DNA of 63,847 bases from Actinomycetales bacterium (GCA_051960855.1 JBQCDV010000155.1:1-63847), one strand, 5' to 3'; positions 25,684-45,229 are shown, counted from the first letter of the stretch. The notes: generated by a model from the sequence alone, not told the origin. Numbers and translations: made by a program.

Positions 25684-25692
25684 AGCGTGGAA

Positions 25693-30864: not shown

Positions 30865-30884
30865 GGCTGCGCCGGTGGGAGCCC

Positions 30885-31904: not shown

Positions 31905-31963
31905 GGCGCCACTCTGCCCTGGCAGTGATCACCAGGAGTGGACTTCCCGAATCCGGAGCGTGT

Positions 31964-32692
31964 CTACAACGCCAGCAGGCCCTTGACGACGGTCAGCGTC
32001 GCTCCGACGACGGCAACGACCGTGGTGGCGAGGCGGGCGCGGTCGGAGGGGACGCGGTCGTGCAGCCACTGCCCGACGAGCGTCCCGACAGCGAGAGCCA
32101 CCAGCGCGACCACGAGCACGCTGCCGGGGACGTGCGGCAGGCCCCCTTTGGCAATCAGGCTGGCGGCGTTGAGGACGCCGAAGAAGATCTGCATCGTCGC
32201 CACGAAGCGGCGGTGTTCCCACTCAGAGGACAGGGCGTAGAGAGCGACTGCGGGACCGGCGATGCCGGCGGTGACGTTGAGGAAGCCGGCTGCGGCACCG
32301 GCGGCCACGGCACCGACGGTTCCCCGCACGACACGCGCGCGCCGGACGAACGTCACCACCAGCAGGGCCAGCACCACGATCGTCCCGACGAAGACCGACA
32401 GCACGGGCGCAGGCAGGTGGCGGGCGACCCACGCCCCCGGCACCAAGGCAAGTAGGGCCGGCACGCCCAGCAGCGCTGCTCGCCGCCACTCGGTCTCCCG
32501 CCAGGTCTGCAACGCGACAACGGCATTGACGACGAGGTTGAGCAGGTTGGCGAGCAGCACGCCCTCGAACGGCCCCAGCAGCAGCACGAGGAACGGTGAG
32601 GAGACCAGGGCGAAGCCCATGCCGGTGACACGCTGCGCGCCGCCCCCGGCGAGGACGGCGCCTGCGACCACCGCGAGCGCGGCGACGGGCAC
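31964..32692 (-). CDS. TauE/SafE family sulfonate/sulfite exporter
   Basis: QRVTGMGFALV and AGIAGP repeats; about 8 TM helices; last gene of the SQ operon. Confidence 0.88.
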   Translation of the reverse strand: MPVAALAVVAGAVLAGGGAQRVTGMGFALVSSPFLVLLLGPFEGVLLANLLNLVVNAVVALQTWRETEWRRAALLGVPALLALVPGAWVARHLPAPVLSVFVGTIVVLALLVVTFVRRARVVRGTVGAVAAGAAAGFLNVTAGIAGPAVALYALSSEWEHRRFVATMQIFFGVLNAASLIAKGGLPHVPGSVLVVALVALAVGTLVGQWLHDRVPSDRARLATTVVAVVGATLTVVKGLLAL

Positions 32693-32698
32693 GGCCGG

Positions 32699-34174
32699 TC
32701 AGACCCCCAGGGCCAGGTGGCGGACGTCGGTGAACTCCTCCAGGCCGAGGCTCGCGCCCTCCCGGCCGAGTCCGGACTGCTTCACGCCCCCCATCGGTGC
32801 GAAGGCGACCGAGGGCAATGCGTCATTGACGCCGACGATGCCCACCTCCAGTCGCTCAGCGAACCGCCACGCGCGCCCGACATCCCGCGACCACACGTAG
32901 CCGGCGAGGCCCATCTCGGTCGCGTTTGCACGGCGCAGCGCCTCGTCCTCGTCCTGGATGCGGAAGACACCGGCGACGGGCCCGAACACCTCCGCGCACG
33001 CCAGCGGGGTTCCATCCGGGACGTCGGCGAGCAGCGCGGGAGCGACCCAGGAGCCCTTGTCCGGCAACGACCTGCGCTGCGTCAGGAGTCGCGCGCCCCC
33101 CTGCAGCGCATGCTCGACGACAGCGTTCACGGCGTCGACCCGCTTATCGTCGATGACCGGTCCGAGGTCGGGGACAGGGTCGGCCAGCCCGTTGCCGATG
33201 AACATGGCATCCACTCGCGCGACCAGCTTGCCGACGAACTCGTCGTAGACGGCCTCATGGACCACCAACCGGTTGGCGGCGATGCAGGACTGACCGGTGT
33301 TGCGGAACTTCGCGATGAGTGCGCCTTCGACAGCCGCGTCGATATCGGCATCATCGAGGACGACAAAGGCAGCGTCCCCGCCGAGCTCCAGCAGCGGACG
33401 GACGATGCGCGGAGCGGACTGCTGCAGGATGAGACGACCGACCTCCGTGGAGCCGGTGAAGGTGACCACGCGAACGGCCGGGTTTCCGAGCAGCGCCGCG
33501 GTCAGCTCCGGAGCTGGGCCGTGCACGAGGTTCACCACGCCGTCGGGGACACCGGCGTCGACCAGGCACCGAACCAGCTCGGTGACAGCCAAGGGCGCCT
33601 TCTCCGACACCCGAGCGACAACCGTGCAGCCGGCAGCGAGCGCGGGAGCGAGCTTGCGGGCCTGGATGGAGCACGGGAAGTTCCAGGGGGTCAGGCTCGC
33701 GACCACTCCGGCAGGCCGCCGCAGCGTCAGGTGCCGCTTGCCCGGGGTCTCGTGCGCAAGGACCTCCCCCACCGGCCGCCGCGCCTGCTCGGCGAACCAT
33801 CGGAAGTACTCCGCTGAGAACGCCACCTCCCCCTGCGCCTCCGGCAGCCGCTTCCCAGCCTCGCGCGCCAGCAGGTGAGCGATCGAGCCGGAGCGCTCCG
33901 CGATGAGGTCGGCTGCGGCAAGCAGGATGTCCGCCCGCTTGCGGGCGGGCAGGGCTCCCCACGGTGTCAGCGCGCGGGCGGCGGCGTCAGCGGCCCGAAC
34001 GGCGTCCGCGTCGCTACCCCACGCCGAACGCCCCACGAGCGAGCCGTCGGCGGGGTCGATGACGTCGAAGGCCTCGTCCCCGTCCCGCCAGTGGCCATCG
34101 ATAAGCATCGGCGCGTAGCCGATCGGGGCGGCTCCGTCTGCGCCGGGTGTCGGAATGGTGGTCGCGCTGGTCAC
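32699..34174 (-). CDS. NAD(P)-dependent aldehyde dehydrogenase (GabD/SlaB-like; probable sulfolactaldehyde dehydrogenase)
   Basis: TPWNFP, FTGSTEVG, LELGG (Glu), GQSCIA (Cys), EVFGPV, PMGGVKQSGLGREG; substrate inferred from context. Confidence 0.88.
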   Translation of the reverse strand: MTSATTIPTPGADGAAPIGYAPMLIDGHWRDGDEAFDVIDPADGSLVGRSAWGSDADAVRAADAAARALTPWGALPARKRADILLAAADLIAERSGSIAHLLAREAGKRLPEAQGEVAFSAEYFRWFAEQARRPVGEVLAHETPGKRHLTLRRPAGVVASLTPWNFPCSIQARKLAPALAAGCTVVARVSEKAPLAVTELVRCLVDAGVPDGVVNLVHGPAPELTAALLGNPAVRVVTFTGSTEVGRLILQQSAPRIVRPLLELGGDAAFVVLDDADIDAAVEGALIAKFRNTGQSCIAANRLVVHEAVYDEFVGKLVARVDAMFIGNGLADPVPDLGPVIDDKRVDAVNAVVEHALQGGARLLTQRRSLPDKGSWVAPALLADVPDGTPLACAEVFGPVAGVFRIQDEDEALRRANATEMGLAGYVWSRDVGRAWRFAERLEVGIVGVNDALPSVAFAPMGGVKQSGLGREGASLGLEEFTDVRHLALGV

Positions 34175-34214
34175 GATCTGCTCCTTGGGGAATTGCACCG
34201 TCAGAGGACAGCGA

Positions 34215-35360
34215 TCACGGAACGAGGATGTCGGGGCGGGTGCGGCCACCGACGACGACTATCGGCCAGGTGCCGTCGTGCACGAGCGGGTCGACGCCGC
34301 GACGCGTGACGAGGCAGGTGTCCTCGACCTTCCAGCCGTCACCGCTGGGGTTCCAGGCCGCGACCGCGTGCTCCGGAACGACGACACCGCTGCCCGGCGT
34401 GGCGAGGCCATCACGGGGCACGAAGCCCGACAAGCCACCCTGATGGTGCCGGTGCCACTCCTGCGGGTCGAAACCGCGGGCCGCGTACGCCGCGGTACCG
34501 GCGGCGAGGATGTCACCGAGGGTCGTACCGGCCCGGGTGGCGTCGAGGAAGGCCGCCTCCACCTGCAGCAGGGCGAAGAAGCGGTCGTACTCCCGCGCCG
34601 GCACCGGCCCGAACGACACGATTCTCGTCACGCTCGCGACCACGCCGTGGCGCCGGGCGCAGGCGACGACCATCGCGCGGCGCCCGAGGCGAGCAGCCGT
34701 CGGCAGCGGGTGACGGTGCGGGCCGATCCGCTCGTCCCCTGCTGCGAAGAGGCAGATGACGTCGCAACCGCGCTCCAGCAGCCCCTCGGCCATCCGCGCG
34801 GCGAGGTCCCACTCGGAGCTGCGCGGACTCACCTGCTGGCAGGCGACGGTGGCGGCAGCCGCAGCGTCAGCACTCACCTCGCGCAGCCGGTCGCGCTGCA
34901 GGGATGTCAACGAGCGGCGGGCGGCGGCGAGCGGGCCCGCGACGTCCACGGCGCCGGGCCACGCTCGGTCAGCGCCAACACGAACCACGGACGCGTCGGG
35001 GAACCCGTCGCTGCGCGCCTCCCACCACGGCACGACCGTCCACTCGACCGGCAGTCCGGCCAGCTCCGTGTCGGCGAGGCGGGGTGCCTCGATCGCGTTC
35101 GCGACGATGCGCAGCGACGGCGCGGTCGAAGCCGTGTCGACGACGACGTCGAAGCACGCAGCGTCGAGCGTCTGCGGCACGTGCCAGCGCGCACCCGTCA
35201 GCCAGCCGATCGTCGCGGGCTCTCGGATCAGCAGGCTGTCGACGTCAGCGGCGCAGGCAATCCCCTGCAGGGCCTCGAGCTTCTCGGGCAGGTCTCCCGC
35301 GCCGGACCGCTCCCCGACGTCGGACCGCAAGCCGGGCTGCGGCGTTCGCAGATCAACCAT
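34215..35360 (-). CDS. M24/creatinase-fold hydrolase, atypical active site
   Basis: WLTG N-domain; RHPLPT, ASVTR, HHQGG, WNPS, KVEDT; overlaps the GH31 stop codon. Confidence 0.82.
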   Translation of the reverse strand: MVDLRTPQPGLRSDVGERSGAGDLPEKLEALQGIACAADVDSLLIREPATIGWLTGARWHVPQTLDAACFDVVVDTASTAPSLRIVANAIEAPRLADTELAGLPVEWTVVPWWEARSDGFPDASVVRVGADRAWPGAVDVAGPLAAARRSLTSLQRDRLREVSADAAAAATVACQQVSPRSSEWDLAARMAEGLLERGCDVICLFAAGDERIGPHRHPLPTAARLGRRAMVVACARRHGVVASVTRIVSFGPVPAREYDRFFALLQVEAAFLDATRAGTTLGDILAAGTAAYAARGFDPQEWHRHHQGGLSGFVPRDGLATPGSGVVVPEHAVAAWNPSGDGWKVEDTCLVTRRGVDPLVHDGTWPIVVVGGRTRPDILVP

Positions 35361-37668
35361 GACGAACGACGCCCGCGATCCGGAGGCCGCCCGGCTGCGG
35401 CCCGTCGACGGTGGCGCTCTCCCCCGTCACAGTGACGCGAACGGGCAGGCCGTCGAAGCCGACGAGGTCGACGGTTGCAGGAGCTTCGCCGTAGGTGTGC
35501 AACTCCCAGGGCGCATCCAGCAGATCGTCGGTGTTGCGCGTCTGGGGTGTCACCGTGACGCGGGGCAGGACGGCACCGTCGCGCACGAGCAGCGGCAGGC
35601 GCTCGAGCGGGACGCTCTCCTGCACCCAGGCTGGTCCCTCGTAGCGCTGGCCCGTGACGAGGTCCGTCCAGCCACCAGGCGGCACGCGGAACCGAACGGG
35701 CGCCTCGCCCACTGAGTCATCGAAGACCGGAGCCACGGCAAGGTCGGAGCCGAGCAGGAACTGGCCGTCAATTCCAGCCGCTGACGGGTCCTCGTCGACC
35801 ATCGACAGCGGCCGCATCACCGGCCAGCCGTGAGCCGCGGACTCGTGGGCAACCTGCCAGAGGTAGGGCAGCAACGAGTAGCGCAGCCGCACCCAGTCCC
35901 GCGCGATGCCGAGGGCGCGGTCACCGAAGGCCCACGGCTCCCGGGGCCGCAGCCCGTGAGCGCGCATCAGCGGCGACAGCGCACCGAGCTGGGTCCACCG
36001 GACGTACAGGGCCGGAGTGAGCTCCGGGCCGAAGAAGCCGCCGATGTCATGGCTCCAGAAGCCCGGAGCCGAGACCGCGTAGGACAGGCCGCCCCGCACG
36101 GTCGCCCGCATGCCGGCGACGCTCGACTCGGCGTCTCCACCCCACTGACCCGGGTACCGCTGCGAGCCGGCCCAGCCGCTGCGGCCCCACACGAGGGGCG
36201 AGCGGCCGGTGAAGTGTGCGATGGCCTCGCTGACCGCAGCGTTGTAGTACAGCGGGTAGAGGTTGTGCGCCTGCTGCGGTGGCGTCCCGTCCGCCAGCGC
36301 AACGTCGTCGGGTAGCGCCTCGCCGAAGTCGGTCTTGAACACGGCGACGCCATCGGCGAGGAACTCCTCGTGCAGGCCCTGCCACCAAGCCTTGGCCTCG
36401 GGGTTGGTGAAGTCGATGAGGGCGCGGGGTCGACCATCGGGGGTCGGCGTCTTGCGGATCGAGGCGATCCCGCCGTCGACGGTCCGGACGAGGTACCCCT
36501 TCGCCTCCGCCTCCGAATAGCGAGGTGACGTCGGGTCGAGGTAGGGCAACTCCCACAGCGAGAGCCGGATCCCGCGCTTCGCAAGCTCATCGAGGAACTG
36601 CTTGCGGTCGCCGAAACGGTCCCTGTTCCAGAGGAAGTCGCAGTTGAGCCGGTCGACGATGAGCCAGTCCGGATCGAGGTGCAGCACGTCGCAGGGCACC
36701 TCGTGCTCGCGCATGCTGTCGGCGACGTCGAGCATCTCGGTGTTGGAGTGGTAGCGGCAGCGGCCCATCCAGTAGCCGAATGCCCACACCGGAGGCACCG
36801 GCGGACGCCCCGTCAGGGCCGTGTAGCCCTCGAGCCGCTCGGCCAAGGTCGGGGCGGCGACGACGTAGAGGTCCAGGACGTCGTCGCCCACCGTGAGACC
36901 AAGGGCCGAAGGCCGGGTGTGGCCGACGTCGGCGGTGACGACCGCACCGGTGTTGAGGAAGCCGGCGTAGCCGCTGCTGGAGTGCCAGACGGGCACCGGC
37001 TTGTAGGCCTGGCCGGTGCCGGTGCCGAGCGCGTCCTCGCTGCGCAGCAGCAGCCGCTGACCGTTCTTGACCAGCCGTGAGAACTGCTCGCCGAAGCCGG
37101 TGATGTCCTCGTCGCTACCCAGCTCGAGATGCAGCGTCGTCCCCTGCTCGTCCAGCAGCACAGGCGGTGCCATCGGCAAGCCGGCCGCCTGCCGCAGCCG
37201 CTGCGCGGTGCGGAGCAGCACCGAGCCGGTCTGCGGGTCCTCGACGGTCACGGTGAAGGGACGGCGACCGATCCGCACGCGCACGCGCGGTGCGGCGACG
37301 ACCACCTCGTCGTCCGACTCCTCAACCGACGGTGCCACAGGCTCCGGCTGGGCATCGACGACGATCCCCGCACCGGTGCCGTCGTCGGCCAGAGCCCGAT
37401 GGCCCCCGGGAGCGAGCACGAGGCGCACTGTCCGGGTGGCCGCCACCGTCACGCGCAGCACCATCGGTGTGGCGTCGGCGGCGGGCAACGACAGGTCGGG
37501 CAGGTTGGGCAGGGTGGTCTCGATGCCCTGCTCGGCCAGCGGCTCTCCCGTCAGCCAGCCGGGCATCAGCCCCACGCGGACAGCCGGCAACGCGACGAGA
37601 GCGAGCTCGACGCCGTTCGGCAGGGTCCGGACGGACTCGACACGACGGACGATGCGCTGGTCGGACAC
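35353..37668 (-). CDS. Glycoside hydrolase family 31 (YicI alpha-xylosidase-like; candidate sulfoquinovosidase)
   Basis: GFGEQF...NGQ, QAYK.VP, PPVWAFG.W, FKTDFGE (nucleophile), WGGD, WSHDIGGF (acid/base), LMRAHG, REPW; GTG after GAAGGGA. Confidence 0.9.
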   Translation of the reverse strand: MSDQRIVRRVESVRTLPNGVELALVALPAVRVGLMPGWLTGEPLAEQGIETTLPNLPDLSLPAADATPMVLRVTVAATRTVRLVLAPGGHRALADDGTGAGIVVDAQPEPVAPSVEESDDEVVVAAPRVRVRIGRRPFTVTVEDPQTGSVLLRTAQRLRQAAGLPMAPPVLLDEQGTTLHLELGSDEDITGFGEQFSRLVKNGQRLLLRSEDALGTGTGQAYKPVPVWHSSSGYAGFLNTGAVVTADVGHTRPSALGLTVGDDVLDLYVVAAPTLAERLEGYTALTGRPPVPPVWAFGYWMGRCRYHSNTEMLDVADSMREHEVPCDVLHLDPDWLIVDRLNCDFLWNRDRFGDRKQFLDELAKRGIRLSLWELPYLDPTSPRYSEAEAKGYLVRTVDGGIASIRKTPTPDGRPRALIDFTNPEAKAWWQGLHEEFLADGVAVFKTDFGEALPDDVALADGTPPQQAHNLYPLYYNAAVSEAIAHFTGRSPLVWGRSGWAGSQRYPGQWGGDAESSVAGMRATVRGGLSYAVSAPGFWSHDIGGFFGPELTPALYVRWTQLGALSPLMRAHGLRPREPWAFGDRALGIARDWVRLRYSLLPYLWQVAHESAAHGWPVMRPLSMVDEDPSAAGIDGQFLLGSDLAVAPVFDDSVGEAPVRFRVPPGGWTDLVTGQRYEGPAWVQESVPLERLPLLVRDGAVLPRVTVTPQTRNTDDLLDAPWELHTYGEAPATVDLVGFDGLPVRVTVTGESATVDGPQPGGLRIAGVVRHG

Positions 37669-37670
37669 TG

Positions 37671-38486
37671 CTATCCCTTCACGGAGCCGGCGGTCAGGCC
37701 GGCGACGAAGTAGCGCTGCAGGAAGACGTAGGCGACGACGACGGGCGCAGAGGCGACGATGACGCCGGTGAACAGCAGCGGGTAGTTGGTGAGGAACTCG
37801 CCCTGGAAGTCCAGCAGAGCCAGGGGAAGCGTCTTCTTGCTCGGGTCGTGGATGAACAGCAGCGGGTACAGCAGGTCGTTCCACTGGATGACGAACAGGA
37901 AGATCGCGGTCGCGGCCAGCGACGGCAGGGCCACCGGGATGATGATCGAGCGGAAGGTCTGCCAAGGATTCGCGCCGTCGATGGAACTGGCCTCGTAGAG
38001 CTCACCCGGCAGGGTGCGCATGAAGCCGGTGAGGATGAACACCGCGACGGGCAGGGCCACGACGATCTCGATGAGGATGAGACCGACCAAGCTGTCGAGC
38101 AGGTGCAGCCGCTGGAAGAGGACGTACTGCGGAATCATGTTCGCCTGCGCCGGCACGGCCATCCCGATGACGAGGAAGCCGAAGATCAGCCAGCCGCGCC
38201 AGCCGGGAATGCGGGCGATGCCGTAGGAGGCGAAGCTGCCGATCGCAAGCGTCAGGACGACGGCGCAGCCGGTGACGATGACGCTGTTGAGGAAGGCTCG
38301 GCCCATGTCCGCATCGCCGAGGACGGTGCCGTAGTTGTGCGGAGACAGCGAGCTCGGCAAGCCGAAGGGGCTGGCGAACAACTGCTTCGTCGTCTTGAAC
38401 GATCCCGTCAATACGACGATAAGCGGGATGGCGACGAGCAGTGCGTAGATGGCGAGGATGACTCGTCGCCCGAGGTTGTGGGTCAT
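37671..38486 (-). CDS. Carbohydrate ABC permease (CUT1)
   Basis: ELYEASSIDGA EAA loop, IQWNDLLYP; 6 TM helices. Confidence 0.93.
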   Translation of the reverse strand: MTHNLGRRVILAIYALLVAIPLIVVLTGSFKTTKQLFASPFGLPSSLSPHNYGTVLGDADMGRAFLNSVIVTGCAVVLTLAIGSFASYGIARIPGWRGWLIFGFLVIGMAVPAQANMIPQYVLFQRLHLLDSLVGLILIEIVVALPVAVFILTGFMRTLPGELYEASSIDGANPWQTFRSIIIPVALPSLAATAIFLFVIQWNDLLYPLLFIHDPSKKTLPLALLDFQGEFLTNYPLLFTGVIVASAPVVVAYVFLQRYFVAGLTAGSVKG

Positions 38487-38505
38487 GGGGGTCAGTCCTT
38501 CCTCG

Positions 38506-39507
38506 TCAGGTGGACGGCTGCGTCAGCCGCACCGCACGCCGCTGCACGAAGCTGACGACGGCGATGATGAGCATGAACACGATCGACTCGGCGGCGGCGT
38601 AGCCGAACTGCGAGTTGGTGAACGTCGTGTAGATGCGCGTGGACAGGATGTCCATCGAGTTCTTCGGCGGGTTGCCACCGAGACCGAGGATGAGGTCGAA
38701 GGCCTTGAACGACTGGACGGTCGTGTAGGCAATGACGATCGCGGTCGCCGGTGCCACCATCGGCCAGGTGACGTAGCGGAAGCGCTGCCAGCGGCCGGCC
38801 CCGTCGAGGTCGGCCGACTCGTAGAGCTCGGCCGGGATCTGCTGCAGCCCCGCGATGAAGATGACCATCAGCTGGCCCGTGTGCGCCCACACCTGGCACA
38901 GCGCCACCCAGTAGATCGCCTGCCGCGGATTCCCGAGGAAGGCGCTCTGCATCCCGTCGAGCCCGACAGCTCCGAGGGTCTGGTTAATCAGCCCGAAGTT
39001 CGGGTCGTACATGAACTTCCAGACAAAGGCCACCGACACCGACGACAAGATCGTGGGCAGGAAGTAGAGCGACCGCAGCGCCGTGGACGACCGGGAGTTG
39101 CGCTGCAGCAGGAGCGCGAGCAGCAGAGACAGGCCGGTCTGCAGGATCACCACGACCAGCAGGAACTTCACGTTGTTGAACACCGCGTTGCGGAACAGGT
39201 CATCGTTGGTCGCGATGTTGGTGAAGTTGCCGAGCCCCACGGACTTGAAGGCGGCACTGAAGCCGTCCCAGTTGGTCACCGAGTACTCGAAGGCCTGCAG
39301 GGTCGGCAGCGCGAAGAACACGACGTACAGCGCGACGGCCGGCAACGGGAAGAGCCACATCGCTGGGTGGACCCGGGTGGGCCCCCGGCCCCGGAAGCGC
39401 ACACCACCACGGGGACGCGGAGTCTCCGGGTAGGTGGCCGCCGGGGCGGGGACGCCGCCCTTGGGATCAGGAGCTGAGGTCGCCCTCTTCGGCACGGAAA
39501 CTGGCAT
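38506..39507 (-). CDS. Carbohydrate ABC permease (CUT1)
   Basis: AGLQQIPAELYESADLDGA EAA loop, FKAFD. Confidence 0.93.
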   Translation of the reverse strand: MPVSVPKRATSAPDPKGGVPAPAATYPETPRPRGGVRFRGRGPTRVHPAMWLFPLPAVALYVVFFALPTLQAFEYSVTNWDGFSAAFKSVGLGNFTNIATNDDLFRNAVFNNVKFLLVVVILQTGLSLLLALLLQRNSRSSTALRSLYFLPTILSSVSVAFVWKFMYDPNFGLINQTLGAVGLDGMQSAFLGNPRQAIYWVALCQVWAHTGQLMVIFIAGLQQIPAELYESADLDGAGRWQRFRYVTWPMVAPATAIVIAYTTVQSFKAFDLILGLGGNPPKNSMDILSTRIYTTFTNSQFGYAAAESIVFMLIIAVVSFVQRRAVRLTQPST

Positions 39508-39516
39508 GAGGAGCCC

Positions 39517-40833
39517 CTACTGGCTGCGCTTCTGGTCGACGATCTTCTGGGCGTCAGCGGCGGCCTGCTGGGGGCTCTTGCCACCGACGACCGCGATGCA
39601 CGAGCCCTCGACGGCGTTGCGGATGTCGAGGTTGTTGAACTGGAACCGCGGTGCGAGCAGCGTCTTCTTCTGCAGCCACGGACTGATCGCCTTGAGGTCC
39701 GGGTTGGTGTAGTCGACGTCCTTCACGCTGACGTTCTGGCTGGTGCCGTTGGCGTACACGCCGGCGACCTCGGGCTGCGACAGGTACTGGAGCCAGGCGA
39801 GCGCCGCACCCTGGTTCTTCGACGCACTGTTGACGCCGAGCACGAAGGTCGCGTTGTAGATGCCCTCGTACTTCGCCTTGTCAGCGCTCGTCGTGATCGG
39901 CGAGAGCAGGTTCATCGGGAACTTTGCACCGAGTCCGCGCACGGCGGCGATGTGGTACGACCCAGTGGCGAGCATGCCAGCCTTGCCGGTGGCGAAGATC
40001 TGCTGGCAGGGCTCGACGGCGGTGCCCGTGCTGTTGGGCTGGAAGTACGGCCGCAGCTGCGCGTACTGCTGCAGCGTCTTGAGGAACCAGTCATCGGTGC
40101 ACTTGTACTCGCCCGACTCGATCTTGGCGCACATATCGTCGGAGGGAGCGTTGTTCATGACCATGGAGTTGAACAGCTGACCAGCGTTGCCGGCGTCGCC
40201 GCCGGGCCACGCGATCGGGACCAGGCCCTGGGACTTCAGCTTGTCGCACAGGGCGAGGAAGCTGTCCCAGTCCTTCGGTGGCGTGCCGCCGTCGGCCTTG
40301 CTGATGATGTCCTCGTTGGTCACCGGCATGTTGAAGACGACCTGGTAGGGGAAACCGAGCTGCTTGCCGTCGACTTTGCCTGAGGAGATGAGAGACGCCT
40401 CGTAGTTGGAGACGAACGGCTGGCTCGACAGGTCCGTGTAGATGCCCGCCTTGACCATGTCGACGAACTGGGCACCGCGGAAGGCTGTGAAGACGTCGCC
40501 GACCGCGCCTCCGCGGATCCGCTGGAGGGCCGAGGACTGGTAGTCATTCGAGGGCGAGATGTCCTGCGTGACCGTGACGCCGGGGTTCTTCTTCTGGAAG
40601 TCAGCGATCATCTTGTCGAAGACGGCCTTGTCCTCCGCCCGCCAGTGGGCGAAGGAGACCTTGCCTGACGCCTTTGCACCGGACGCCGGCGCGGACGGCT
40701 TGGCCGCCCCTGTTGCGCCACCGCTGCTGCTCCCACCGGGGCCAGCGCACGCCGCCAGCGCGAGTCCCGCGCCGGTGGCGCCGAAGAGCTTCAGCAGCTG
40801 GCGTCGCGACAGGGCGTTTTCGTCGTTGCTCAT
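39517..40833 (-). CDS. CUT1 ABC substrate-binding lipoprotein (Tat-type signal)
   Basis: LSRRQLLK + LAAC lipobox; extracellular solute-binding family features. Confidence 0.92.
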   Translation of the reverse strand: MSNDENALSRRQLLKLFGATGAGLALAACAGPGGSSSGGATGAAKPSAPASGAKASGKVSFAHWRAEDKAVFDKMIADFQKKNPGVTVTQDISPSNDYQSSALQRIRGGAVGDVFTAFRGAQFVDMVKAGIYTDLSSQPFVSNYEASLISSGKVDGKQLGFPYQVVFNMPVTNEDIISKADGGTPPKDWDSFLALCDKLKSQGLVPIAWPGGDAGNAGQLFNSMVMNNAPSDDMCAKIESGEYKCTDDWFLKTLQQYAQLRPYFQPNSTGTAVEPCQQIFATGKAGMLATGSYHIAAVRGLGAKFPMNLLSPITTSADKAKYEGIYNATFVLGVNSASKNQGAALAWLQYLSQPEVAGVYANGTSQNVSVKDVDYTNPDLKAISPWLQKKTLLAPRFQFNNLDIRNAVEGSCIAVVGGKSPQQAAADAQKIVDQKRSQ

Positions 40834-40891
40834 CGATCTGTCTCCTCGTGCGGTTGACCTACCTGGATGGGCCGTGGTGTGACGAGGCGTC

Positions 40892-42391
40892 TCACCACTC
40901 GATGACGCGAATGCCGCAAAGGTCGGCGGCTTGGCGCAGCGCGGGCCGGACGTCCGTCCAGGCCAGCACGGTGTGGTGCGGGAAGCCGCCGGTCACCAGG
41001 CCGGCAACGAACTCCGCTGCCGGAGCCGACAACCGGACGGCCGCGGTGTTGCCCTGGAACCGGTTGGGCTCCGGGATCGACTCTCCTGACGCGATCAGCA
41101 GGCGCAGCCCGGTGGCGCTGTCCGGGTCTGGATCCTCGGTAATCCGAGCCATCACCACAGGGCCGGTCTTGAGCGGGAAGTTGCCCGCGACGCCGATCTT
41201 TCGGTTGCAGTGCACGGACTGGGTCGCCGCCTCAGGGTCGGCGGCGAGCGACGTCGCCGCCGAGCCGCAGTGCCAGACGCGGACGACATTGGCGTCGGCA
41301 TCGAGGTCGACGGTGTCGACGAGATAGGTCGTGCCGCTGCCCAGCGCCTCCAGCAACAGCATGGTCACGGTGCCGTAGACATCGCGCTCGCACGCCGTGG
41401 GGACGCCCTCGTCAGCCAAGCGCGACAGCGCGGAGCAGGGGCAGACACCTAGCTGGGTAGGAAACTCCGGCCAGCAGCGCACCGCGATCCCAGACAGGAC
41501 GTCTGCTGCGCTCCAGCCACGCAGCGCGCTAGTGACTGCGGCGAAACGCCGCACCTGCTCGGGGTCGAGGTCAGCGAGACTCGGCCGGGCCGCCAGCGAG
41601 GCGCTCTGCTCGGCGTCGACGCCGGCGTCCGGCACCGCGCGCGCCAGGTCGAAGGCGTCCTCGACGCCGATCTCGTCCACCTGGAGGCCGAAGACGTCGG
41701 AGAGGACGGCGGCGTCGTACTGGCTGGGGGTGAAGCCGGGAGGGGCGTCCCCGACCAGGCCGATCCGCTTGCCGCGCAGCGAGTCCAAGGCCGGGCGCAC
41801 GGACTCGGAGTCCGCACGCTCGCGCTGCTCCGTCGGAAGGGCCGGCGCCTCGGGAAGCTGGCCGCGCAGCGCAGCCTGCAGCGCCGCCCGCACGTGCGGC
41901 TCGCCCGGGTCGCCGTAGAGTAAGCGCACGGCGCCTCCCGCGCGCACGAGGGCGTGGCCGAAGAGGTTCGCCCCACACAGGGAGTTCAACCAGAGCCGGT
42001 CCCCCACCGGACCGGGCTCGCGGAAGGACCAGAGCAGGACGGGCCGGTCGAGGTCGGAGTAGAGCCGTAGTGCGGGAGTCGCGTCGGAGAAGGACGCGCA
42101 CACGTTGAGGTAGAGCTCGGCATCCGCGCCGACGAACGACGCCGCGGCCTCGACATCCTCCGGCGTCATGACGAGCTCGGTCGGTCCGCTCACCTGCGCG
42201 CCCAAGTCGGTCAGCAGCTGCCGGGCGGCCTCGGCGCGCTCACGTGCGGTCTCAACGGCGAAGGTGGGACGGGCGGTGGCCACCATGACGACGCGGGGAC
42301 CGTCGCCGGCGGCGTTCGGGGAGTGGGTGAGCGACGACGGCGCGCTCGGCACGGTCGCAGCGGCCTCGGCGGGAGTCGTGGGGGCGGTCAT
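40892..42391 (-). CDS. L-fucose/L-arabinose-isomerase-fold sugar isomerase (SqvD/SftI-like; probable sulfoquinovose isomerase)
   Basis: NSLCG, AVRCWPE, ACERDVYG, WHCG, FPHH; ATGA overlap with the aldolase; substrate inferred from context. Confidence 0.8.
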   Translation of the reverse strand: MTAPTTPAEAAATVPSAPSSLTHSPNAAGDGPRVVMVATARPTFAVETARERAEAARQLLTDLGAQVSGPTELVMTPEDVEAAASFVGADAELYLNVCASFSDATPALRLYSDLDRPVLLWSFREPGPVGDRLWLNSLCGANLFGHALVRAGGAVRLLYGDPGEPHVRAALQAALRGQLPEAPALPTEQRERADSESVRPALDSLRGKRIGLVGDAPPGFTPSQYDAAVLSDVFGLQVDEIGVEDAFDLARAVPDAGVDAEQSASLAARPSLADLDPEQVRRFAAVTSALRGWSAADVLSGIAVRCWPEFPTQLGVCPCSALSRLADEGVPTACERDVYGTVTMLLLEALGSGTTYLVDTVDLDADANVVRVWHCGSAATSLAADPEAATQSVHCNRKIGVAGNFPLKTGPVVMARITEDPDPDSATGLRLLIASGESIPEPNRFQGNTAAVRLSAPAAEFVAGLVTGGFPHHTVLAWTDVRPALRQAADLCGIRVIEW

Positions 42392-43320
42392 CGCGCGGAC
42401 ACTGCCTCGTCCACGACCTGGCCGAGCCGCTGCAGCCGCGCGACGGCGTCCTGCTCGAGGGAGGCCCGCACGTCGGGGGCAGCGATGCACGCGCGCCAGA
42501 CCGCACGCCCCGCCAGGAAGCCGGAGGCGCCCGCTTGGATTGCAAGCTGGACGGCTCGGGGGAAGACGTCGTCCTTAACGCCGGAGGAGAGCACGACCCA
42601 GGGTGAGGCGACCGCCTCGGTGATCTGGGCGCACTGGCGCGACACCTCGGCCTCGTCACCCTCACCGTGCAGTGGTACCTCGGCCTTGTACAGGTCCACC
42701 CCGAGGTCGCCGAGCTCACGGGCCGCGGCAAGGATGCCGTCGCCCCAGTCCCAGGCGCGGCCGTCCAGCGGCGGGCGGGAGACGGGCTCGATGATGCTGA
42801 CGAGCCCGGCTGTCTGGCAGCGAGCACGGAAGTCCTCGACCATCGCCGTGCGCTGCTCGGGGTCACCGTCTGGTCGCCAGATGACCAGGAGCTTCGCGGC
42901 GACCGCGCCCTGGGCCGCGTAGTGCTCGAGGTCCACCGCGTCGTCGATGACCGCGTCGCCGACGACCTCCTGCGGTCCGGGGATGAAGTGGTCGGCCGCG
43001 ACGATGAGGCCGCACCCGGGGGCGACGACGCTCTGCTCGAGGGCCTGGTCAAGCACGAACTGCTTGTCGAGCAGGACGGCTGAGGCGTAAGGCGTGAGGA
43101 TGCGGGCGGCCTCGAGCTTGAAGGCAGTGACATCAGCGTCGGGGATGTCGCGCTGCTGCTGCTCGGCGAGCATGCCGCGCAAGGCCTCGCGCTGGTCGAC
43201 GGCCAGCATCGCGAAGGCGCCAGAAGGGCGACGCAGGTCGTCCAGTGAGGCCCGAGAGGTCCGGTCGTGCGCGGGTGCCACGTCGGTCGAGCTGGGGGAA
43301 GCGGTCAGAGGGTCGGGCAC
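42388..43320 (-). CDS. yihT: Sulfofructose-1-phosphate aldolase (class I)
   Basis: SGAFAMLAVDQREA, FK..AA..L.PYASA.L.D.QF, LIVAAD.FIPG, KLLV.WR.D, GLVSIIEPV.RPP, DLYK.E.PL.G.G, PWV.LSSGV...FPRAV..A..AGASGFLAGRAVW; matches the E. coli YihT pattern as I recall it. Confidence 0.88.
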   Translation of the reverse strand: MPDPLTASPSSTDVAPAHDRTSRASLDDLRRPSGAFAMLAVDQREALRGMLAEQQQRDIPDADVTAFKLEAARILTPYASAVLLDKQFVLDQALEQSVVAPGCGLIVAADHFIPGPQEVVGDAVIDDAVDLEHYAAQGAVAAKLLVIWRPDGDPEQRTAMVEDFRARCQTAGLVSIIEPVSRPPLDGRAWDWGDGILAAARELGDLGVDLYKAEVPLHGEGDEAEVSRQCAQITEAVASPWVVLSSGVKDDVFPRAVQLAIQAGASGFLAGRAVWRACIAAPDVRASLEQDAVARLQRLGQVVDEAVSAR

Positions 43321-44237
43321 GGTGAGCTCTCCTCGAGGGTCGCGGCCAGGGCAGCCGCCTCGTCGTGAGTGGGGATCCGGGATCGGCCGTCGAGACCGCG
43401 GCAGGACAGGGCGGCGACGGCGTTGGCATAAGCCAGCGCGCGGGGCAACGGCTCGCTCCGCGTCGCGGCTGCGACGAGCGCACCGTGGAAGACGTCGCCC
43501 GCACCGAGGGTGGAGACGATCTCGAGGGAGGCGCCTGGCACCTCGGCCCGCTCACCGGCGGCACTTCGTCCGACCGAGCCGCGGCCCCCGCGAGTGGCGA
43601 CGACGAGTTGGGCGCCGTCATCCAGGCTGCGCGCCAGGGCACTGTCGAGCTCGTCCACTCCGTAGCGCGCCAGCAGCGACTCCTCGGTCGGGACGTCCAG
43701 GGCGACGCCGCGCGGCTGGTACCCGGGGATGGTGTTGCCGCAGTCGACGCTGACCTGAGCGTCGGTGGACACCGCGTGACGCAGTGAGGTGAGAGCCGGC
43801 CAGCCCAGGTGGTCGACGTGGACCCAGCCTGCCGCGGCGAGCAGCTCGGCGACCGGGCCGGTTGCCTCGAGGGCCAGCGGCGGCTGCGGCCGCGTGCAGA
43901 TCGCCCGGGTCCCTCGGCCGCGGTCCACGATGACGACACTGACGCCGGTCTGGGCGCCCTTTCGGCGGGTGACCGCGCTCACCCCGACGCCCTCAGCGAC
44001 GAGGTCGGCGACGAGCCGCTCCCCGATCTCGTCGTCCCCGACCACTCCCACGAAGTGAACGTCGCGGATGCCCAGGCGCGCAGCGGCAACTGCGGCCGTT
44101 GCTGCCGGACCTCCGCCTGCGACGACGATGTCGTCGGCCACGAGCCGCTCGTCGGGAGCGGGGGTGTGGTCCGTCAGGGCGATGGTGTCGAGGGTCGAGA
44201 CCCCGAGGAACACGACCGGGCCCACTGTCACTGTCAC
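43305..44237 (-). CDS. yihV: PfkB sugar kinase, YihV-like sulfofructose kinase
   Basis: GGGPAATAAVAAARLG, GVVGDD, STLGAGDVFHGA; adjacent to yihT. Confidence 0.78.
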   Translation of the reverse strand: MTVTVGPVVFLGVSTLDTIALTDHTPAPDERLVADDIVVAGGGPAATAAVAAARLGIRDVHFVGVVGDDEIGERLVADLVAEGVGVSAVTRRKGAQTGVSVVIVDRGRGTRAICTRPQPPLALEATGPVAELLAAAGWVHVDHLGWPALTSLRHAVSTDAQVSVDCGNTIPGYQPRGVALDVPTEESLLARYGVDELDSALARSLDDGAQLVVATRGGRGSVGRSAAGERAEVPGASLEIVSTLGAGDVFHGALVAAATRSEPLPRALAYANAVAALSCRGLDGRSRIPTHDEAAALAATLEESSPCPTL

Positions 44238-44261
44238 CGTCCTTCTGCCGAGCGAATGATG

Positions 44262-44293
44262 AGACAGTAACAACGAATGTTGGAAAGTCAACA
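44262..44293. promoter_or_regulatory. SQ-operon promoter with overlapping palindromic operator candidates
   Basis: Minus strand TTGACT-N16-TACTGT; overlapping CAAC-GAAT-GTTG (44271-44282) and TGTTG-GAAAGT-CAACA (44278-44293). Confidence 0.6.
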
Positions 44294-44397
44294 CTCTCGC
44301 TACGATGAACTTCGGGGTTCACGGCGCAGGCGCGTTGGCACCTCTCGGGAGCGGGCAGCGTGCCACGCTGTCGCGAGAAGGTAGGAGGTCGCGTGCG

Positions 44398-45225
44398 ATG
44401 AGCACCGAGGTGTGGCCCGAGCAGGCCGTGGCCGGCGGCTCGATGCGGTACGACCGCGCGCCCGACCGCCGTGCCCGCATCCTCGAGACGGTGGCGGCGC
44501 ACGGCTTTGTGTCCGTCACTGCCCTGGCCGCAGATCTGGGCGTCTCGGACATGACCATCCGGCGCGACCTTCGACGCCTGTCCGCCGCCGGCGAAGTCCG
44601 CGTCTTCCACGGCGGGGTCAGCCTCCCCCACGCCACCCTGCGAACCTCGGAGTTCGTCTCACGGGCGGAGTCGAATGCCGAGGCCAAGAGCCGCGTCTCG
44701 GAACGGGCAGCACAGCTGGTGCGCGAGGACGACGTCGTAGCTATCGACGCGGGGACGACCGCCTTCGGAGTCGTCACTGCTCTGCCACCGAGCTTCCGCG
44801 GGACTGTCGTCACGCACTCTGTGCCGGCGATCCAGCACCTCCTGCATCGCCCGGACGCCCGGCTGGTGGGGCTCGGCGGCGAGCTGTACCCGCCGAGCCA
44901 GGCCTTTGTCGGCCAAGCGGCCGTCGACCAGGCGCAGCACGTCCGGGTGCGCGTATTGATCCTCGGCGCCGCAGCGGTCGACGCACGCGGCGTCTATGCA
45001 GAGGCCGATGTCGAGCGCAGCGTCAAGCTCGCCCTCATCGACGCCGCCGACGACGTGGTGCTCGTCGTCGACTCGACGAAGTTCACCGCGAGGGCGTCCG
45101 TGCGGCTGTGCGGACTCGAACGCCTCACACACCTCGTCACCGACGCTCCGCCTCCCCCGGCGCTGCGGCGCCAACTGCGTCAGGACGCCGTCGAGGTCAT
45201 CCTCGCGGCGCCCGCCACCGCCTGA
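44398..45225 (+). CDS. DeoR/GlpR family regulator (CsqR-like position)
   Basis: RRARIL..V...G.VSV..LA..LGVSDMTIRRDL, IDAGTT, DSTKF. Confidence 0.93.
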   Translation: MSTEVWPEQAVAGGSMRYDRAPDRRARILETVAAHGFVSVTALAADLGVSDMTIRRDLRRLSAAGEVRVFHGGVSLPHATLRTSEFVSRAESNAEAKSRVSERAAQLVREDDVVAIDAGTTAFGVVTALPPSFRGTVVTHSVPAIQHLLHRPDARLVGLGGELYPPSQAFVGQAAVDQAQHVRVRVLILGAAAVDARGVYAEADVERSVKLALIDAADDVVLVVDSTKFTARASVRLCGLERLTHLVTDAPPPPALRRQLRQDAVEVILAAPATA

Positions 45226-45229
45226 CGCG

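What the first reader, a model, noticed from the sequence alone, without database searches (positions are those of the whole stretch)
31964..45225. Complete mosaic sulfoquinovose (sulfoglycolysis) operon
Seen: deoR divergent from kinase-aldolase-isomerase-SBP-2 permeases-GH31-M24-ALDH-TauE, mostly overlapping or closely spaced. The aldolase carries YihT-type motifs throughout. Established: sulfo-EMP converts SQ to SF, SFP, then DHAP + sulfolactaldehyde; variants in Bacilli and Arthrobacter use a fucose-isomerase-fold SqvD and oxidise sulfolactaldehyde to sulfolactate. Inference: enterobacterial-type YihV/YihT combined with a Firmicute-type isomerase, ABC uptake (ATPase presumably the shared MsiK) and two non-standard gateway hydrolases. 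Automated annotation would probably miss it as generic sugar genes.
Basis: partly seen in the sequence, partly recalled or inferred. Interest (0 to 1): 0.8.

Follow-up and report, generated by a model that had tools for sequence, protein, structure and literature searches.

The report
Actinobacterial hybrid sulfoquinovose catabolism operon
A soil actinobacterium carries an 11-gene, repressor-controlled operon that most likely imports the plant sulfosugar sulfoquinovose, splits it into a glycolytic triose and exports sulfolactate; this mixed-origin gene set is common in actinobacteria and already noted in print, but its glycosidase and a metal-less peptidase-like partner are uncharacterised.

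Summary
Window 31964-45225 carries ten tightly packed minus-strand genes and a divergent DeoR regulator, in the stated order.

The sulfoglycolysis reading is well supported in silico:
- The aldolase is a true YihT relative. It scores 292 bits against YihT and about 63 against tagatose aldolases, and all published catalytic and sulfonate residues are kept.
- The isomerase matches only NCBI's sulfoquinovose isomerase model and has an arabinose/fucose-isomerase fold.
- The kinase is nearest YihV, though it lacks YihV's exact sulfonate triad.
- A GabD-like aldehyde dehydrogenase and a TauE exporter finish the route to sulfolactate.

The same cluster appears in 12 of 12 sampled actinobacterial genomes. 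A conserved palindrome, TGTTGA-N5-CAACA, sits in the divergent promoter.

It is not new as a kind. Hybrid sulfo-EMP1/2 clusters in Actinobacteria are published, including sqvD replacing yihS in Streptomyces sp. WMMB 322.

The fresher parts are two:
- The GH31 belongs to a distinct YicI-branch clade in which three pocket residues are invariantly changed (F277R, F308D, W380T).
- Its translationally coupled M24-fold partner has lost three of five metal ligands.

Neither was found described in the papers searched. All functions are inferred, not assayed.

The parts
44443..45225 (+). DeoR-family (CsqR-like) repressor; the ORF opens at 44305 and the likely start is ATG 44443
   Evidence: Pfam HTH_DeoR and DeoRC. 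30% identity to E. coli CsqR over 247 aa. The HTH begins at residue 55 of the long ORF, and ortholog alignments begin at residues 14-55.
44278..44293 (-). Candidate operator TGTTGACTTTCCAACA (palindrome TGTTGA-N5-CAACA), 47 nt upstream of the kinase start. It overlaps a TTGACT -35-like hexamer and is followed by a GTTGTTA half-site.
   Evidence: It is the only site in the 63.8-kb window (the 2 matches are its two strands; 0.09 expected by chance). An exact copy lies in the divergent promoter region of L001-L004, L009, L018, L022 and L024. Variants precede both sub-operons of the split cluster in L007.
43305..44231 (-). YihV-like PfkB sugar kinase (predicted sulfofructose kinase); likely start GTG 44231
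   Evidence: Pfam PfkB. Best solved relative is YihV 7ag6 at 117 bits, against 88 for ribokinase. 36% identity to EcYihV. D13, S95 and the GAGD catalytic Asp are kept; the KRN triad is not. RBS AAGGA lies upstream.
42388..43320 (-). YihT-type class I sulfofructose-1-phosphate aldolase
   Evidence: 7ag7 (SFP aldolase) E 5.5e-86, 292 bits; best tagatose-bisphosphate aldolase 63 bits. 47% identity to EcYihT. A26, K193, S226, S227 and R253 are all conserved.
40892..42391 (-). SqvD/SftI-type sulfoquinovose isomerase; ATG 42391 forms ATGA with the aldolase stop
   Evidence: The only NCBIfam hit is NF048012 sulfoquinovose isomerase, E 9e-82, 275 bits, below the 700 cutoff. In the AF2 model, the 41 best PDB fold matches are all L-arabinose, L-fucose or D-arabinose isomerases. 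Remote homologues sit in sulfoquinovose-type clusters in Chloroflexota and Zymomonas.
39517..40833 (-). CUT1-type solute-binding lipoprotein (twin-arginine-like SRRQLL motif and LAAC lipobox)
   Evidence: Pfam SBP_bac_1 and SBP_bac_8. N-terminus shown. No close solved relative (best 69 bits).
38506..39507 (-). ABC permease 1 (MalF/UgpA type)
   Evidence: Pfam BPD_transp_1; NCBIfam UgpA-like, 124 bits.
37671..38486 (-). ABC permease 2 (MalG/UgpE type)
   Evidence: Pfam BPD_transp_1; NCBIfam GlcU/UgpE-like.
35353..37668 (-). Cytoplasmic GH31 glycosidase of a distinct YicI-branch clade; candidate sulfoquinovosidase; start GTG 37668, 2 nt after the permease stop
   Evidence: Three GH31 Pfam domains. 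YicI 344 bits, 5f7c 380 bits, YihQ 136 bits. Catalytic D447 and D512 are kept. YicI F277->R305, C307->P333, F308->D334 and W380->T407 are invariant in 18 of 18 clade members. The clade has 100/100 support.
34215..35360 (-). M24 (pita-bread) fold protein without a dinuclear metal site; function unknown; start overlaps the GH31 stop by 8 nt
   Evidence: Pfam Peptidase_M24, 36 bits. AF2 pLDDT 90; prolidase, creatinase and DoeA folds match at TM 0.65-0.75 with 13-20% identity. PepP ligands: D260->V232, D271->S243, E383 not Glu; H354->H305 and E406->E346 kept. Invariant basic motifs are listed.
32699..34174 (-). GabD/SSADH-like aldehyde dehydrogenase; predicted sulfolactaldehyde dehydrogenase; likely start GTG 34174 after AAGGAG
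   Evidence: Pfam Aldedh, 500 bits. EcGabD 3jz4 420 bits; SLA dehydrogenase RlGabD 8c54 366 bits. Motifs WNFPCSIQAR, RNTGQSC and LELGG are present in the window protein and six orthologues.
31964..32692 (-). TauE/SafE (TSUP) membrane protein; predicted sulfolactate exporter
   Evidence: Pfam TauE, 89 bits. It is conserved as the last gene of the operon or sub-operon in 11 of 12 clusters.

Best explanation
The locus is a DeoR/CsqR-type-regulated hybrid sulfo-EMP operon for sulfoquinovose (SQ), probably taken up as sulfoquinovosyl glycerol. The proposed steps, all inferred from sequence and context, are as follows. (1) A lipoprotein SBP and two CUT1 permeases import the sugar; the ATPase is encoded elsewhere. 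(2) The cytoplasmic retaining GH31 (nucleophile D447, acid/base D512) releases SQ and glycerol. (3) The SqvD/SftI-type isomerase makes sulfofructose. (4) The YihV-like PfkB kinase makes sulfofructose-1-phosphate. (5) The YihT-type class I aldolase, acting through a Schiff base on K212, yields DHAP and sulfolactaldehyde. (6) The GabD-like dehydrogenase oxidises sulfolactaldehyde to sulfolactate. (7) TauE exports the sulfolactate. The repressor binds the TGTTGA-N5-CAACA palindrome over the operon promoter and is presumably released by SQ or a derivative. The M24-fold protein is an accessory, non-peptidase partner of the GH31 whose reaction is unknown.
For: Aldolase: 292 bits to solved SFP aldolase against about 63 to LacD, and all five published YihT residues are kept (residues from PMC8006165). 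Isomerase: sulfoquinovose isomerase is the sole NCBIfam match, the fold is AraA/FucI, and homologues sit in sulfoquinovose-type clusters of two other phyla. Kinase: the nearest solved relative is YihV. ALDH: GabD-like, with the Arg pair proposed for RlGabD (PMC10599462). TauE. Regulator: 30% identical to CsqR, with a conserved operator. The cluster recurs in 12 of 12 sampled genomes across at least eight actinobacterial families. In Micromonospora sp. MS34 the operon continues into FGGY-kinase and GlpD-like genes, as expected if glycerol is released. A 48%-identical GH31 with the same R/P/D/T signature sits in a sulfo-ED-like cluster with a sulfolactate-dehydrogenase-like gene. The window comes from rhizosphere and soil metagenomes. 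Arthrobacter strains with a related cluster grow on SQ and excrete sulfolactate (PMC8873060).
Against: There is no experimental datum for this cluster type. The kinase lacks the exact K27-N109-R138 triad of YihV: it has R50, T134 next to a conserved R135, and no alignable Arg. The isomerase scores well below NCBI's curated cutoff (275 against 700). The ALDH is no closer to a proven SLA dehydrogenase than to E. coli GabD. The GH31 lacks the Q/E-RWY motif of YihQ sulfoquinovosidases and is nearest to alpha-xylosidases and alpha-glucosidases; E. coli YicI itself is inactive on PNP-SQ (PMC12780224). A GH13 enzyme in another sulfoquinovose cluster turned out to be a plain alpha-glucosidase (bioRxiv 10.1101/2023.03.31.535182). 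No ATPase or mutarotase is in the cluster, and I could not search the rest of the genome.
Confidence: 0.85

Rival explanations
1. The core genes do catabolise SQ, but the GH31 and M24 pair does not cleave SQ glycosides. It is an ordinary alpha-glucosidase or alpha-xylosidase module, or it acts on another imported glycoconjugate. Free SQ is the transported substrate, or another enzyme is the sulfoquinovosidase.
For: The GH31 is closest to alpha-xylosidases and alpha-glucosidases and lacks the YihQ Q/E-RWY motif. F308->D is the change I recall as pushing YicI towards glucosidase activity (Okuyama 2006; from memory, not checked here). A GH13 in another sulfoquinovose cluster proved to be a plain alpha-glucosidase (bioRxiv 10.1101/2023.03.31.535182). 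Micromonospora sp. MS34 also carries a Gfo/Idh/MocA gene in the cluster, which could be an NAD-dependent sulfoquinovosidase (the match is not specific).
Against: The clade with invariant R305/D334/T407 was found only in sulfoquinovose-type clusters: 12 of 12 sulfo-EMP hybrids plus one sulfo-ED-like cluster. Ordinary actinobacterial YicI homologues keep F/C/F/W. In the split S. armeniacus cluster the GH31 sub-operon carries a related palindrome. A YicI-like GH31 sulfoquinovosidase, SqgH, has been proven in Alteromonas (PMC12780224).
Confidence: 0.15
2. The cluster is a generic hexose or tagatose-type pathway for a non-sulfonated sugar such as an alpha-xyloside or alpha-glucoside: a PfkB ketose kinase, a LacD-type aldolase and a FucI-like isomerase. 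The TauE and ALDH genes are incidental.
For: Pfam and NCBIfam give only generic names. The aldolase also hits the PRK12858 'tagatose 1,6-diphosphate aldolase' subfamily at 162 bits, below its cutoff.
Against: The aldolase scores 292 bits to YihT and about 63 to LacD structures, and all sulfonate and phosphate pocket residues are kept. The isomerase matches only the sulfoquinovose isomerase model. TauE and ALDH are conserved cluster members in 11 of 12 genomes. DHAP plus a non-phosphorylated C3 aldehyde that must be oxidised and exported is the logic of sulfoglycolysis, not of tagatose catabolism.
Confidence: 0.04
3. The pathway acts on SQ released from a source other than plant sulfolipid, such as a sulfoquinovosylated bacterial or archaeal envelope glycan or glycopeptide. 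The M24-fold protein would then process a non-glycerol aglycone or linkage.
For: The M24-fold partner is translationally coupled to the GH31 in 11 of 12 clusters and has a conserved basic pocket. Earlier notes of this scan propose SQ-decorated envelopes in soil actinobacteria (unchecked leads only).
Against: Three of five metal ligands are lost, so peptidase chemistry is unlikely. Glycerol-catabolic genes extend the operon in Micromonospora. The M24 gene is absent from one otherwise intact cluster (L017) and from the sulfo-ED-like cluster. A 46% homologue in Actinotalea lies among TRAP, KduI and epimerase sugar-acid genes, with nothing peptide-related nearby.
Confidence: 0.08

Closest known systems
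[quoted passage not shown] 2023, PMC10665668) and the csqR neighbourhood of Streptomyces sp. WMMB 322 (PMC10991401)
   Same: A DeoR/CsqR-like regulator, a YihV-type kinase, a YihT class I aldolase, SqvD in place of YihS, and an SLA dehydrogenase. The WMMB 322 GH31 is 74% identical to this one, so it is the same cluster type.
   Different: Those papers list the mosaics bioinformatically. In the text I could read, they do not describe the YicI-branch GH31, the M24-fold partner or the operator. No member has been tested biochemically.
Modified sulfo-EMP pathway of Arthrobacter sp. AK01/AK04 (Kaur et al. 2022, PMC8873060)
   Same: An actinobacterial cluster with an ABC importer, YihV and YihT homologues, a GabD-type SLA dehydrogenase and TauE (in AK04). 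Sulfolactate is the excreted end product, and there is no mutarotase.
   Different: Arthrobacter uses the YihS isomerase and has no GH31. Its sulfoquinovosidase is the NAD-dependent SqgA of family GH188 (PMC10755693). It has no M24-fold gene.
E. coli yihOPQRSTUV-csqR sulfo-EMP pathway
   Same: The same chemistry from SQ to DHAP plus sulfolactaldehyde. The aldolase is 47%, the kinase 36% and the regulator 30% identical.
   Different: E. coli has MFS transporters, a GH31_13 YihQ (28% identity), a YihR mutarotase, a YihS isomerase, and reduces sulfolactaldehyde to DHPS with YihU.
Sulfo-EMP2 of Bacillus (Alkalicoccus) urumqiensis (Liu et al. 2021, cited in PMC9594981 and PMC12890257)
   Same: An SqvD-type isomerase and an SLA dehydrogenase that produces sulfolactate.
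   Different: It uses a PfkA-family kinase (SqiK) and a class II metal aldolase (SqiA). Here the kinase is PfkB-family and the aldolase is class I.
SqgH, the YicI-like GH31 sulfoquinovosidase of Alteromonas macleodii (PMC12780224)
   Same: A GH31 of the YicI (GH31_3) neighbourhood that lacks the Q/E-RWY motif and is encoded in a sulfoquinovose cluster. The K and F equivalents (K445, F545) are kept, and a Thr sits where YicI has W380.
   Different: SqgH is known from marine gammaproteobacteria with the sulfo-SDO pathway. Its Arg (R302) appears, by spacing, to lie in a TRCDF motif where this protein has LNCDF. This clade instead has an invariant Arg at the YicI F277 position. In a quick tree it does not group with the SqgH-like representatives. 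I could not obtain the AmSqgH sequence itself.

Membership tests
YihT class I sulfofructose-1-phosphate aldolase | DeoC/LacD-family fold, and closer to YihT than to tagatose-bisphosphate aldolases | tested here: met
   Pfam DeoC, 124 bits. 7ag7/1to3/7ag1 score 277-292 bits against 53-63 bits for LacD structures. 47% identity to EcYihT.
YihT class I sulfofructose-1-phosphate aldolase | Schiff-base Lys193 and pocket residues Ser226, Ser227, Arg253 and Ala26 (PMC8006165) | tested here: met
   K212, S245, S246, R272 and A46 align to them.
YihT class I sulfofructose-1-phosphate aldolase | Cleaves SFP but not fructose bisphosphate | not testable with these tools
   Needs an enzyme assay.
YihV sulfofructose kinase | PfkB fold with the GXGD catalytic Asp244, plus Asp13 and Ser95 | tested here: met
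   Pfam PfkB. D36, S119 and GAGD with D267 are conserved in the window protein and six orthologues. YihV is the best PDB hit.
YihV sulfofructose kinase | K27-N109-R138 sulfonate recognition triad (PMC8006165) | tested here: not met
   K27->R50, N109->T134 (next to a conserved R135), and R138 has no alignable Arg; the region reads WVHVDHLGW. I therefore call it YihV-like, not a strict YihV member.
SqvD/SftI sulfoquinovose isomerase | Matches the curated family model NF048012 | tested here: inconclusive
   It is the only NCBIfam hit (E 9e-82), but at 275 bits it falls below the 700-bit equivalog cutoff.
SqvD/SftI sulfoquinovose isomerase | L-arabinose/L-fucose isomerase superfamily fold | tested here: met
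   AF2 model, pLDDT 79. The 41 best Foldseek PDB hits are all AraA, FucI or D-arabinose isomerases, E 1e-21 to 1e-11. The Pfam Fucose_iso_C hit is weak.
SqvD/SftI sulfoquinovose isomerase | Encoded with other sulfoquinovose-catabolic genes | tested here: met
   True for this cluster, and for 30-35% homologues beside SSADH-like, Gfo/Idh/MocA, class II aldolase or PPi-PFK-like and sulfite reductase genes in Zymomonas and Chlorohelix plasmids. Also true for L025.
GH31_13 sulfoquinovosidase (YihQ / AtSQase) | Q/E-RWY sulfonate-binding motif (Q288, R301, W304, Y508) | tested here: not met
   28% identity to YihQ. The motif regions align to YicI-like sequence instead. The catalytic Asp pair is conserved.
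SqgH-type GH31 sulfoquinovosidase | R302, T377, K412 and F513 of AmSqgH (PMC12780224) | tested here: inconclusive
   The AmSqgH sequence was not obtainable. K445 and F545 are conserved and T407 is plausible, but the Arg seems to sit elsewhere (R305). The representatives whose residue spacing fits AmSqgH form another clade.
SLA dehydrogenase (SlaB / GabD type) | ALDH fold with the Cys/Glu dyad and the Arg171/Arg289 pair proposed for sulfonate binding (PMC10599462) | tested here: met
   WNFPCSIQAR, RNTGQSC and LELGG are present. 366 bits to RlGabD 8c54. These features are shared with true succinate-semialdehyde dehydrogenases, so they do not discriminate.
M24 metallopeptidase (prolidase / aminopeptidase P) | Pita-bread fold | tested here: met
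   Foldseek finds prolidases, creatinase and DoeA at E 1e-17, TM 0.65-0.75.
M24 metallopeptidase (prolidase / aminopeptidase P) | Five dinuclear-metal ligands (PepP D260, D271, H354, E383, E406) | tested here: not met
   D260->V232, D271->S243 and E383 is not Glu; only H305 and E346 are kept, invariantly across 24 family members. It is not a metallopeptidase.
CsqR-type DeoR regulator | HTH_DeoR and DeoRC domains, divergent from the genes it controls, with a conserved operator | tested here: met
   The effector is not testable here. CsqR residues R75, T106, T107, E193, D212 and K215 are kept; R150 is not.
Sulfo-EMP pathway (as a system) | Isomerase, kinase, aldolase, SLA-processing enzyme, importer and sulfonate exporter in one regulon | tested here: met
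   All are present. The mutarotase and the ABC ATPase are absent from the cluster and from the window.

The most novel reading that the evidence does not exclude
The GH31 belongs to a soil-actinobacterial lineage of sulfoquinovosidases that arose independently of YihQ (GH31_13), and probably also of marine SqgH. It would recognise the sulfonate through an Arg placed at the YicI F277 position, with F308->D and W380->T opening the C6 pocket. Its translationally coupled M24-fold partner, which has no metal site and a conserved His/Arg-rich pocket, would catalyse a step of SQ-glycoside processing not yet described, such as anomer or aglycone handling.
Probability: 0.35. Interest if true: 0.65.

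Novelty: new member of a known kind. Interest (0 to 1): 0.4.

Why it matters
[quoted passage not shown] This locus shows that one hybrid sulfo-EMP cluster is widespread in rhizosphere and soil Actinomycetes, where it is annotated as generic sugar genes, so surveys based on YihQ, YihS or SqgA markers will miss it. The practical gains are markers and testable targets. The first is the YihT-type aldolase together with the SqvD-type isomerase. The second is a GH31 clade with an R/P/D/T signature, which also appears in a sulfo-ED-like cluster and would widen the set of known sulfoquinovosidases if confirmed. The third is a conserved operator. The fourth is an M24-fold protein of unknown chemistry tied to sulfosugar catabolism.

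Tried and rejected
1. I could not obtain the AmSqgH sequence (WP_014951134.1). No supplement is held for the paper, the plasmid and phage tblastn searches did not contain it, and no top-150 representative has its exact numbering. The relation to SqgH therefore rests on residue spacing only.
2. Whole-genome search for an MsiK-type ATPase, a mutarotase or sulfolactate catabolism was impossible, because the genome search and the fetch from genomes were shut. The only ATPase in the window belongs to a neighbouring CUT2 system.
3. No supplement is held for PMC10665668, so I could not check whether this exact architecture appears in its Figure 5 or its accession list.
4. The Gfo/Idh/MocA protein in the Micromonospora cluster scores 57-59 bits to SqgA structures, no better than to other family members. 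That is inconclusive.
5. No RNA-seq run holds the aldolase gene, so there is no expression evidence.
6. There is no Rfam family in 30000-47000, and the sigma-70 and terminator scans were at background level.
7. The long N-terminal extensions of the ORFs for GH31, isomerase, ALDH, kinase and DeoR were rejected as alternative-frame or upstream read-through, on RBS and ortholog evidence.
8. The tagatose-pathway reading was rejected on the aldolase scores and residues.

Full report
**Observation.** The window is about 70% G+C, so I filtered ORFs by third-position GC and annotated them with Pfam and NCBIfam. Between 31964 and 45225 lie ten co-directional minus-strand genes:
- PfkB kinase
- DeoC/LacD-family aldolase
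- Fucose_iso_C-type isomerase
- SBP_bac_1 binding protein
- two BPD_transp_1 permeases
- a three-domain GH31
- a Peptidase_M24-fold protein
- an aldehyde dehydrogenase
- TauE

A DeoR-family regulator is divergent from them. After choosing starts by RBS and ortholog alignment, the junctions are as follows. Kinase and aldolase overlap by 16 nt. Aldolase and isomerase share ATGA. GH31 and M24 overlap by 8 nt. The remaining gaps are 2-58 nt.

**More than chance.** A genome-collection scan with the M24-fold protein returned four loci. They are a Motilibacteraceae MAG, an Actinomycetes MAG, a Dermatophilaceae MAG and Pseudonocardia nigra DSM 104088. Each carries all eleven genes in the same order at 51-89% protein identity.

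Look-ups of GH31 homologues gave the same cluster in these genomes:
- Nostocoides sp. Soil756
- Kribbella sp. VKM Ac-2527
- Actinomadura sp. K4S16
- an unnamed 934-kb contig
- Streptomyces armeniacus, where the cluster is split into two divergent operons
- Micromonospora sp. MS34, where it is rearranged
- a Nocardioidaceae strain (L017), where it lacks M24, ALDH and TauE

That is 12 of 12 genomes with the core and 11 of 12 with the GH31-M24 pair. The flanking genes of the window are not conserved beside the cluster, so the boundaries are right. The window itself is held by rhizosphere and soil metagenomes.

**The core enzymes.**
- **Aldolase.** It matches solved sulfofructose-phosphate aldolases at 277-292 bits, against 53-63 bits for tagatose-bisphosphate aldolases. 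It is 47% identical to E. coli YihT. It keeps the Schiff-base lysine and every pocket residue defined crystallographically: A26, K193, S226, S227 and R253 align to A46, K212, S245, S246 and R272 (PMC8006165).
- **Isomerase.** It has one NCBIfam match, the SftI sulfoquinovose isomerase model, at E 9e-82 but below the curated cutoff. It has no sequence match in the PDB. Its AF2 model finds only L-arabinose, L-fucose or D-arabinose isomerases among the 41 significant fold matches. Homologues at 30-35% identity lie in sulfoquinovose-type clusters on a Chlorohelix plasmid and on Zymomonas pZZM402.
- **Kinase.** It is nearest to YihV among solved structures, at 117 bits against 88 for ribokinase, and is 36% identical to it. 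It keeps D13, S95 and the GAGD catalytic Asp. It does not keep the K27-N109-R138 sulfonate triad: it has R50, T134 next to a conserved R135, and no alignable third Arg. I call it YihV-like.
- **ALDH.** It belongs to the GabD/SSADH group, as all known sulfolactaldehyde dehydrogenases do, and has the Arg pair proposed for RlGabD (PMC10599462). These features do not separate it from true succinate-semialdehyde dehydrogenases, so its role rests on context.
- **Uptake and location.** TauE fits sulfolactate export. The SBP has a twin-arginine-like lipoprotein signal, while GH31 and M24 have none. Any glycoside is therefore cleaved in the cytoplasm.

**Regulation.** The roughly 210-bp divergent region holds one perfect palindrome, TGTTGACTTTCCAACA, at 44278-44293. 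It is the only site in the window (the 2 matches are its two strands; 0.09 expected). It is followed by a GTTGTTA half-site and overlaps a TTGACT hexamer. The exact motif lies in the divergent promoter region of eight other loci. Related palindromes precede both sub-operons of the split S. armeniacus cluster. This ties the isomerase-transport-GH31-M24 unit to the kinase-aldolase-ALDH-TauE unit. The regulator is 30% identical to CsqR.

**The GH31.** It is not a YihQ-type enzyme: identity is 28% and the Q/E-RWY motif is absent. Its nearest solved relatives are YicI and a Bacteroides alpha-glucosidase. Mapped onto YicI, the catalytic D416 and D482 are kept, as are K414, R466, W479, F515 and H540.

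Three residues I recall as lining the sugar-binding pocket in YicI (recalled from memory, not checked here) are changed in all 18 clade members examined. F277 becomes R305, F308 becomes D334 and W380 becomes T407; C307 also becomes P333. Ordinary actinobacterial, E. coli and haloarchaeal YicI homologues keep F/C/F/W or other non-basic residues. The clade has 100/100 support on a long stem.

A search of 1.84 billion representatives found the full R/P/D/T signature only in the nearest clusters. One of these, at 48% identity, sits in a different sulfosugar context. That cluster has an enolase-type acid-sugar dehydratase, a lactonase-family protein, an SSADH-like ALDH, a DHDPS-family protein and an L-sulfolactate-dehydrogenase-like gene. 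This is a sulfo-ED-like layout without an M24 gene. Association of one glycosidase clade with two different sulfoquinovose pathways is what a gateway sulfoquinovosidase would show. In Micromonospora the operon continues into glycerol-kinase-like and GlpD-like genes, which points to SQ-glycerol as the substrate.

A YicI-like sulfoquinovosidase, SqgH, was proven in Alteromonas in 2025 (PMC12780224). I could not get its sequence. Representatives whose R/T/K/F spacing fits the published residues form another clade, one member of which is also in a YihV/SftI-type cluster. The actinobacterial clade has its Arg at a different position. This suggests, but does not show, a separate origin.

**The M24-fold protein.** The model is confident (pLDDT 90) and matches prolidases, creatinase and ectoine hydrolase at 13-20% identity. 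Against E. coli PepP, three of five metal ligands are lost across the family (D260->V, D271->S, E383 not Glu), while H305 and E346 remain. Invariant motifs are rich in His and Arg: HRHPLPT, RR, EWHRHHQGG, PR and RPD. A 46% homologue in Actinotalea lies among LacI, TRAP-SBP, KduI/IolB and pentose-5-phosphate 3-epimerase-family genes. It is therefore a non-peptidase enzyme of anionic-sugar metabolism with unknown chemistry. Its absence from L017 and from the sulfo-ED-like cluster shows it is accessory.

**What is known.** Sharma et al. 2023 reported hybrid sulfo-EMP1/2 clusters in Actinobacteria and Proteobacteria (PMC10665668). A 2024 CsqR study states that sqvD substitutes for yihS in Streptomyces sp. 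WMMB 322 (PMC10991401), whose GH31 is 74% identical to this one. Arthrobacter strains with a YihS-containing relative of this cluster grow on SQ and excrete sulfolactate (PMC8873060). The operon is thus a new member of a known kind. I found no description of its GH31 clade, the M24 partner or the operator in the papers searched.

**Verdict.** SQ catabolism by a hybrid sulfo-EMP route ending in sulfolactate: confidence 0.85. GH31 as sulfoquinovosidase: about 0.7. M24 function: open. Everything is inferred from sequence, predicted structure and gene context; nothing has been assayed.

Noticed in passing
L018:15640-18859 and L018:688-2492 (Micromonospora sp. MS34): In this rearranged version the TauE gene is followed by FGGY-kinase and DAO/DAO_C (GlpD-like) genes. 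The permease genes are followed by Gfo/Idh/MocA and Amidohydro_2 genes. The first pair suggests use of the glycerol released from SQ-glycerol. The second could be a second, NAD-dependent glycosidase system, but its match to SqgA structures is not specific.
   Followed up: partly
L027:2-14823 (metagenome contig): A 48%-identical GH31 with the same R/P/D/T pocket signature sits in a sulfo-ED-like cluster. The cluster has an enolase-superfamily dehydratase, an SSADH-like ALDH, an ABC system with its own MalK-type ATPase, an SGL lactonase-family protein, an L-sulfolactate-dehydrogenase-like Ldh_2 and a DHDPS-family protein. There is no M24 gene.
   Followed up: partly
L025:2-5263 (70% GC metagenome contig): This is another hybrid cluster. 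Its kinase is 54% identical to EcYihV over the part seen. Its aldolase is LacD/PRK12858-type rather than YihT-type. It has an SftI-type isomerase (285 bits) and a GH31 of a different clade, whose residue spacing fits published SqgH.
   Followed up: partly
L005:6640-11615 (Actinotalea sp. K2): A 46% homologue of the metal-less M24-fold protein lies between a TRAP DctP binding protein and KduI/IolB-family and ribulose-phosphate-3-epimerase-family genes, next to a LacI regulator. This places the family in acidic-sugar metabolism outside sulfoquinovose clusters.
   Followed up: partly
L020 (Ca. Chlorohelix allophototropha plasmid) and L021 (Zymomonas mobilis pZZM402): Both plasmids carry sulfoquinovose-type clusters built around an SqvD-like isomerase. 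Chlorohelix pairs it with a PPi-PFK-like kinase, an SSADH-like ALDH, a Gfo/Idh/MocA protein and a sulfite reductase with siroheme genes. Zymomonas pairs it with a class II aldolase, an aldose epimerase, a Gfo/Idh/MocA protein and an SSADH-like ALDH.
   Followed up: no
proteins P0127-P0238: Many members of the M24-fold family are labelled 'antitoxin VapB' by JGI and UniRef. This looks like a propagated misannotation.
   Followed up: no
window 23064-30445: Upstream of the operon are a CUT2-type sugar ABC system (Peripla_BP_4 binding protein, double ABC ATPase, BPD_transp_2 permease), a GntR/UTRA regulator and a class II aldolase. It is not part of the sulfoquinovose cluster.
   Followed up: no
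window 56281-63065: An IclR regulator is divergent from malate synthase and from a GlcD/GlcE/GlcF-like glycolate oxidase set (two FAD_binding_4 proteins and a CCG/4Fe-4S protein). This is a glycolate or glyoxylate utilisation locus.
   Followed up: no
phage records MG065691.1 and MG065686.1: Two 'Campylobacter phage' records contain a yicI-like gene whose match to the query (36.3% identity, residues 181-701, E 4e-90) equals that of some E. coli records (for example H31). This may reflect foreign or host DNA in the records.
   Followed up: no
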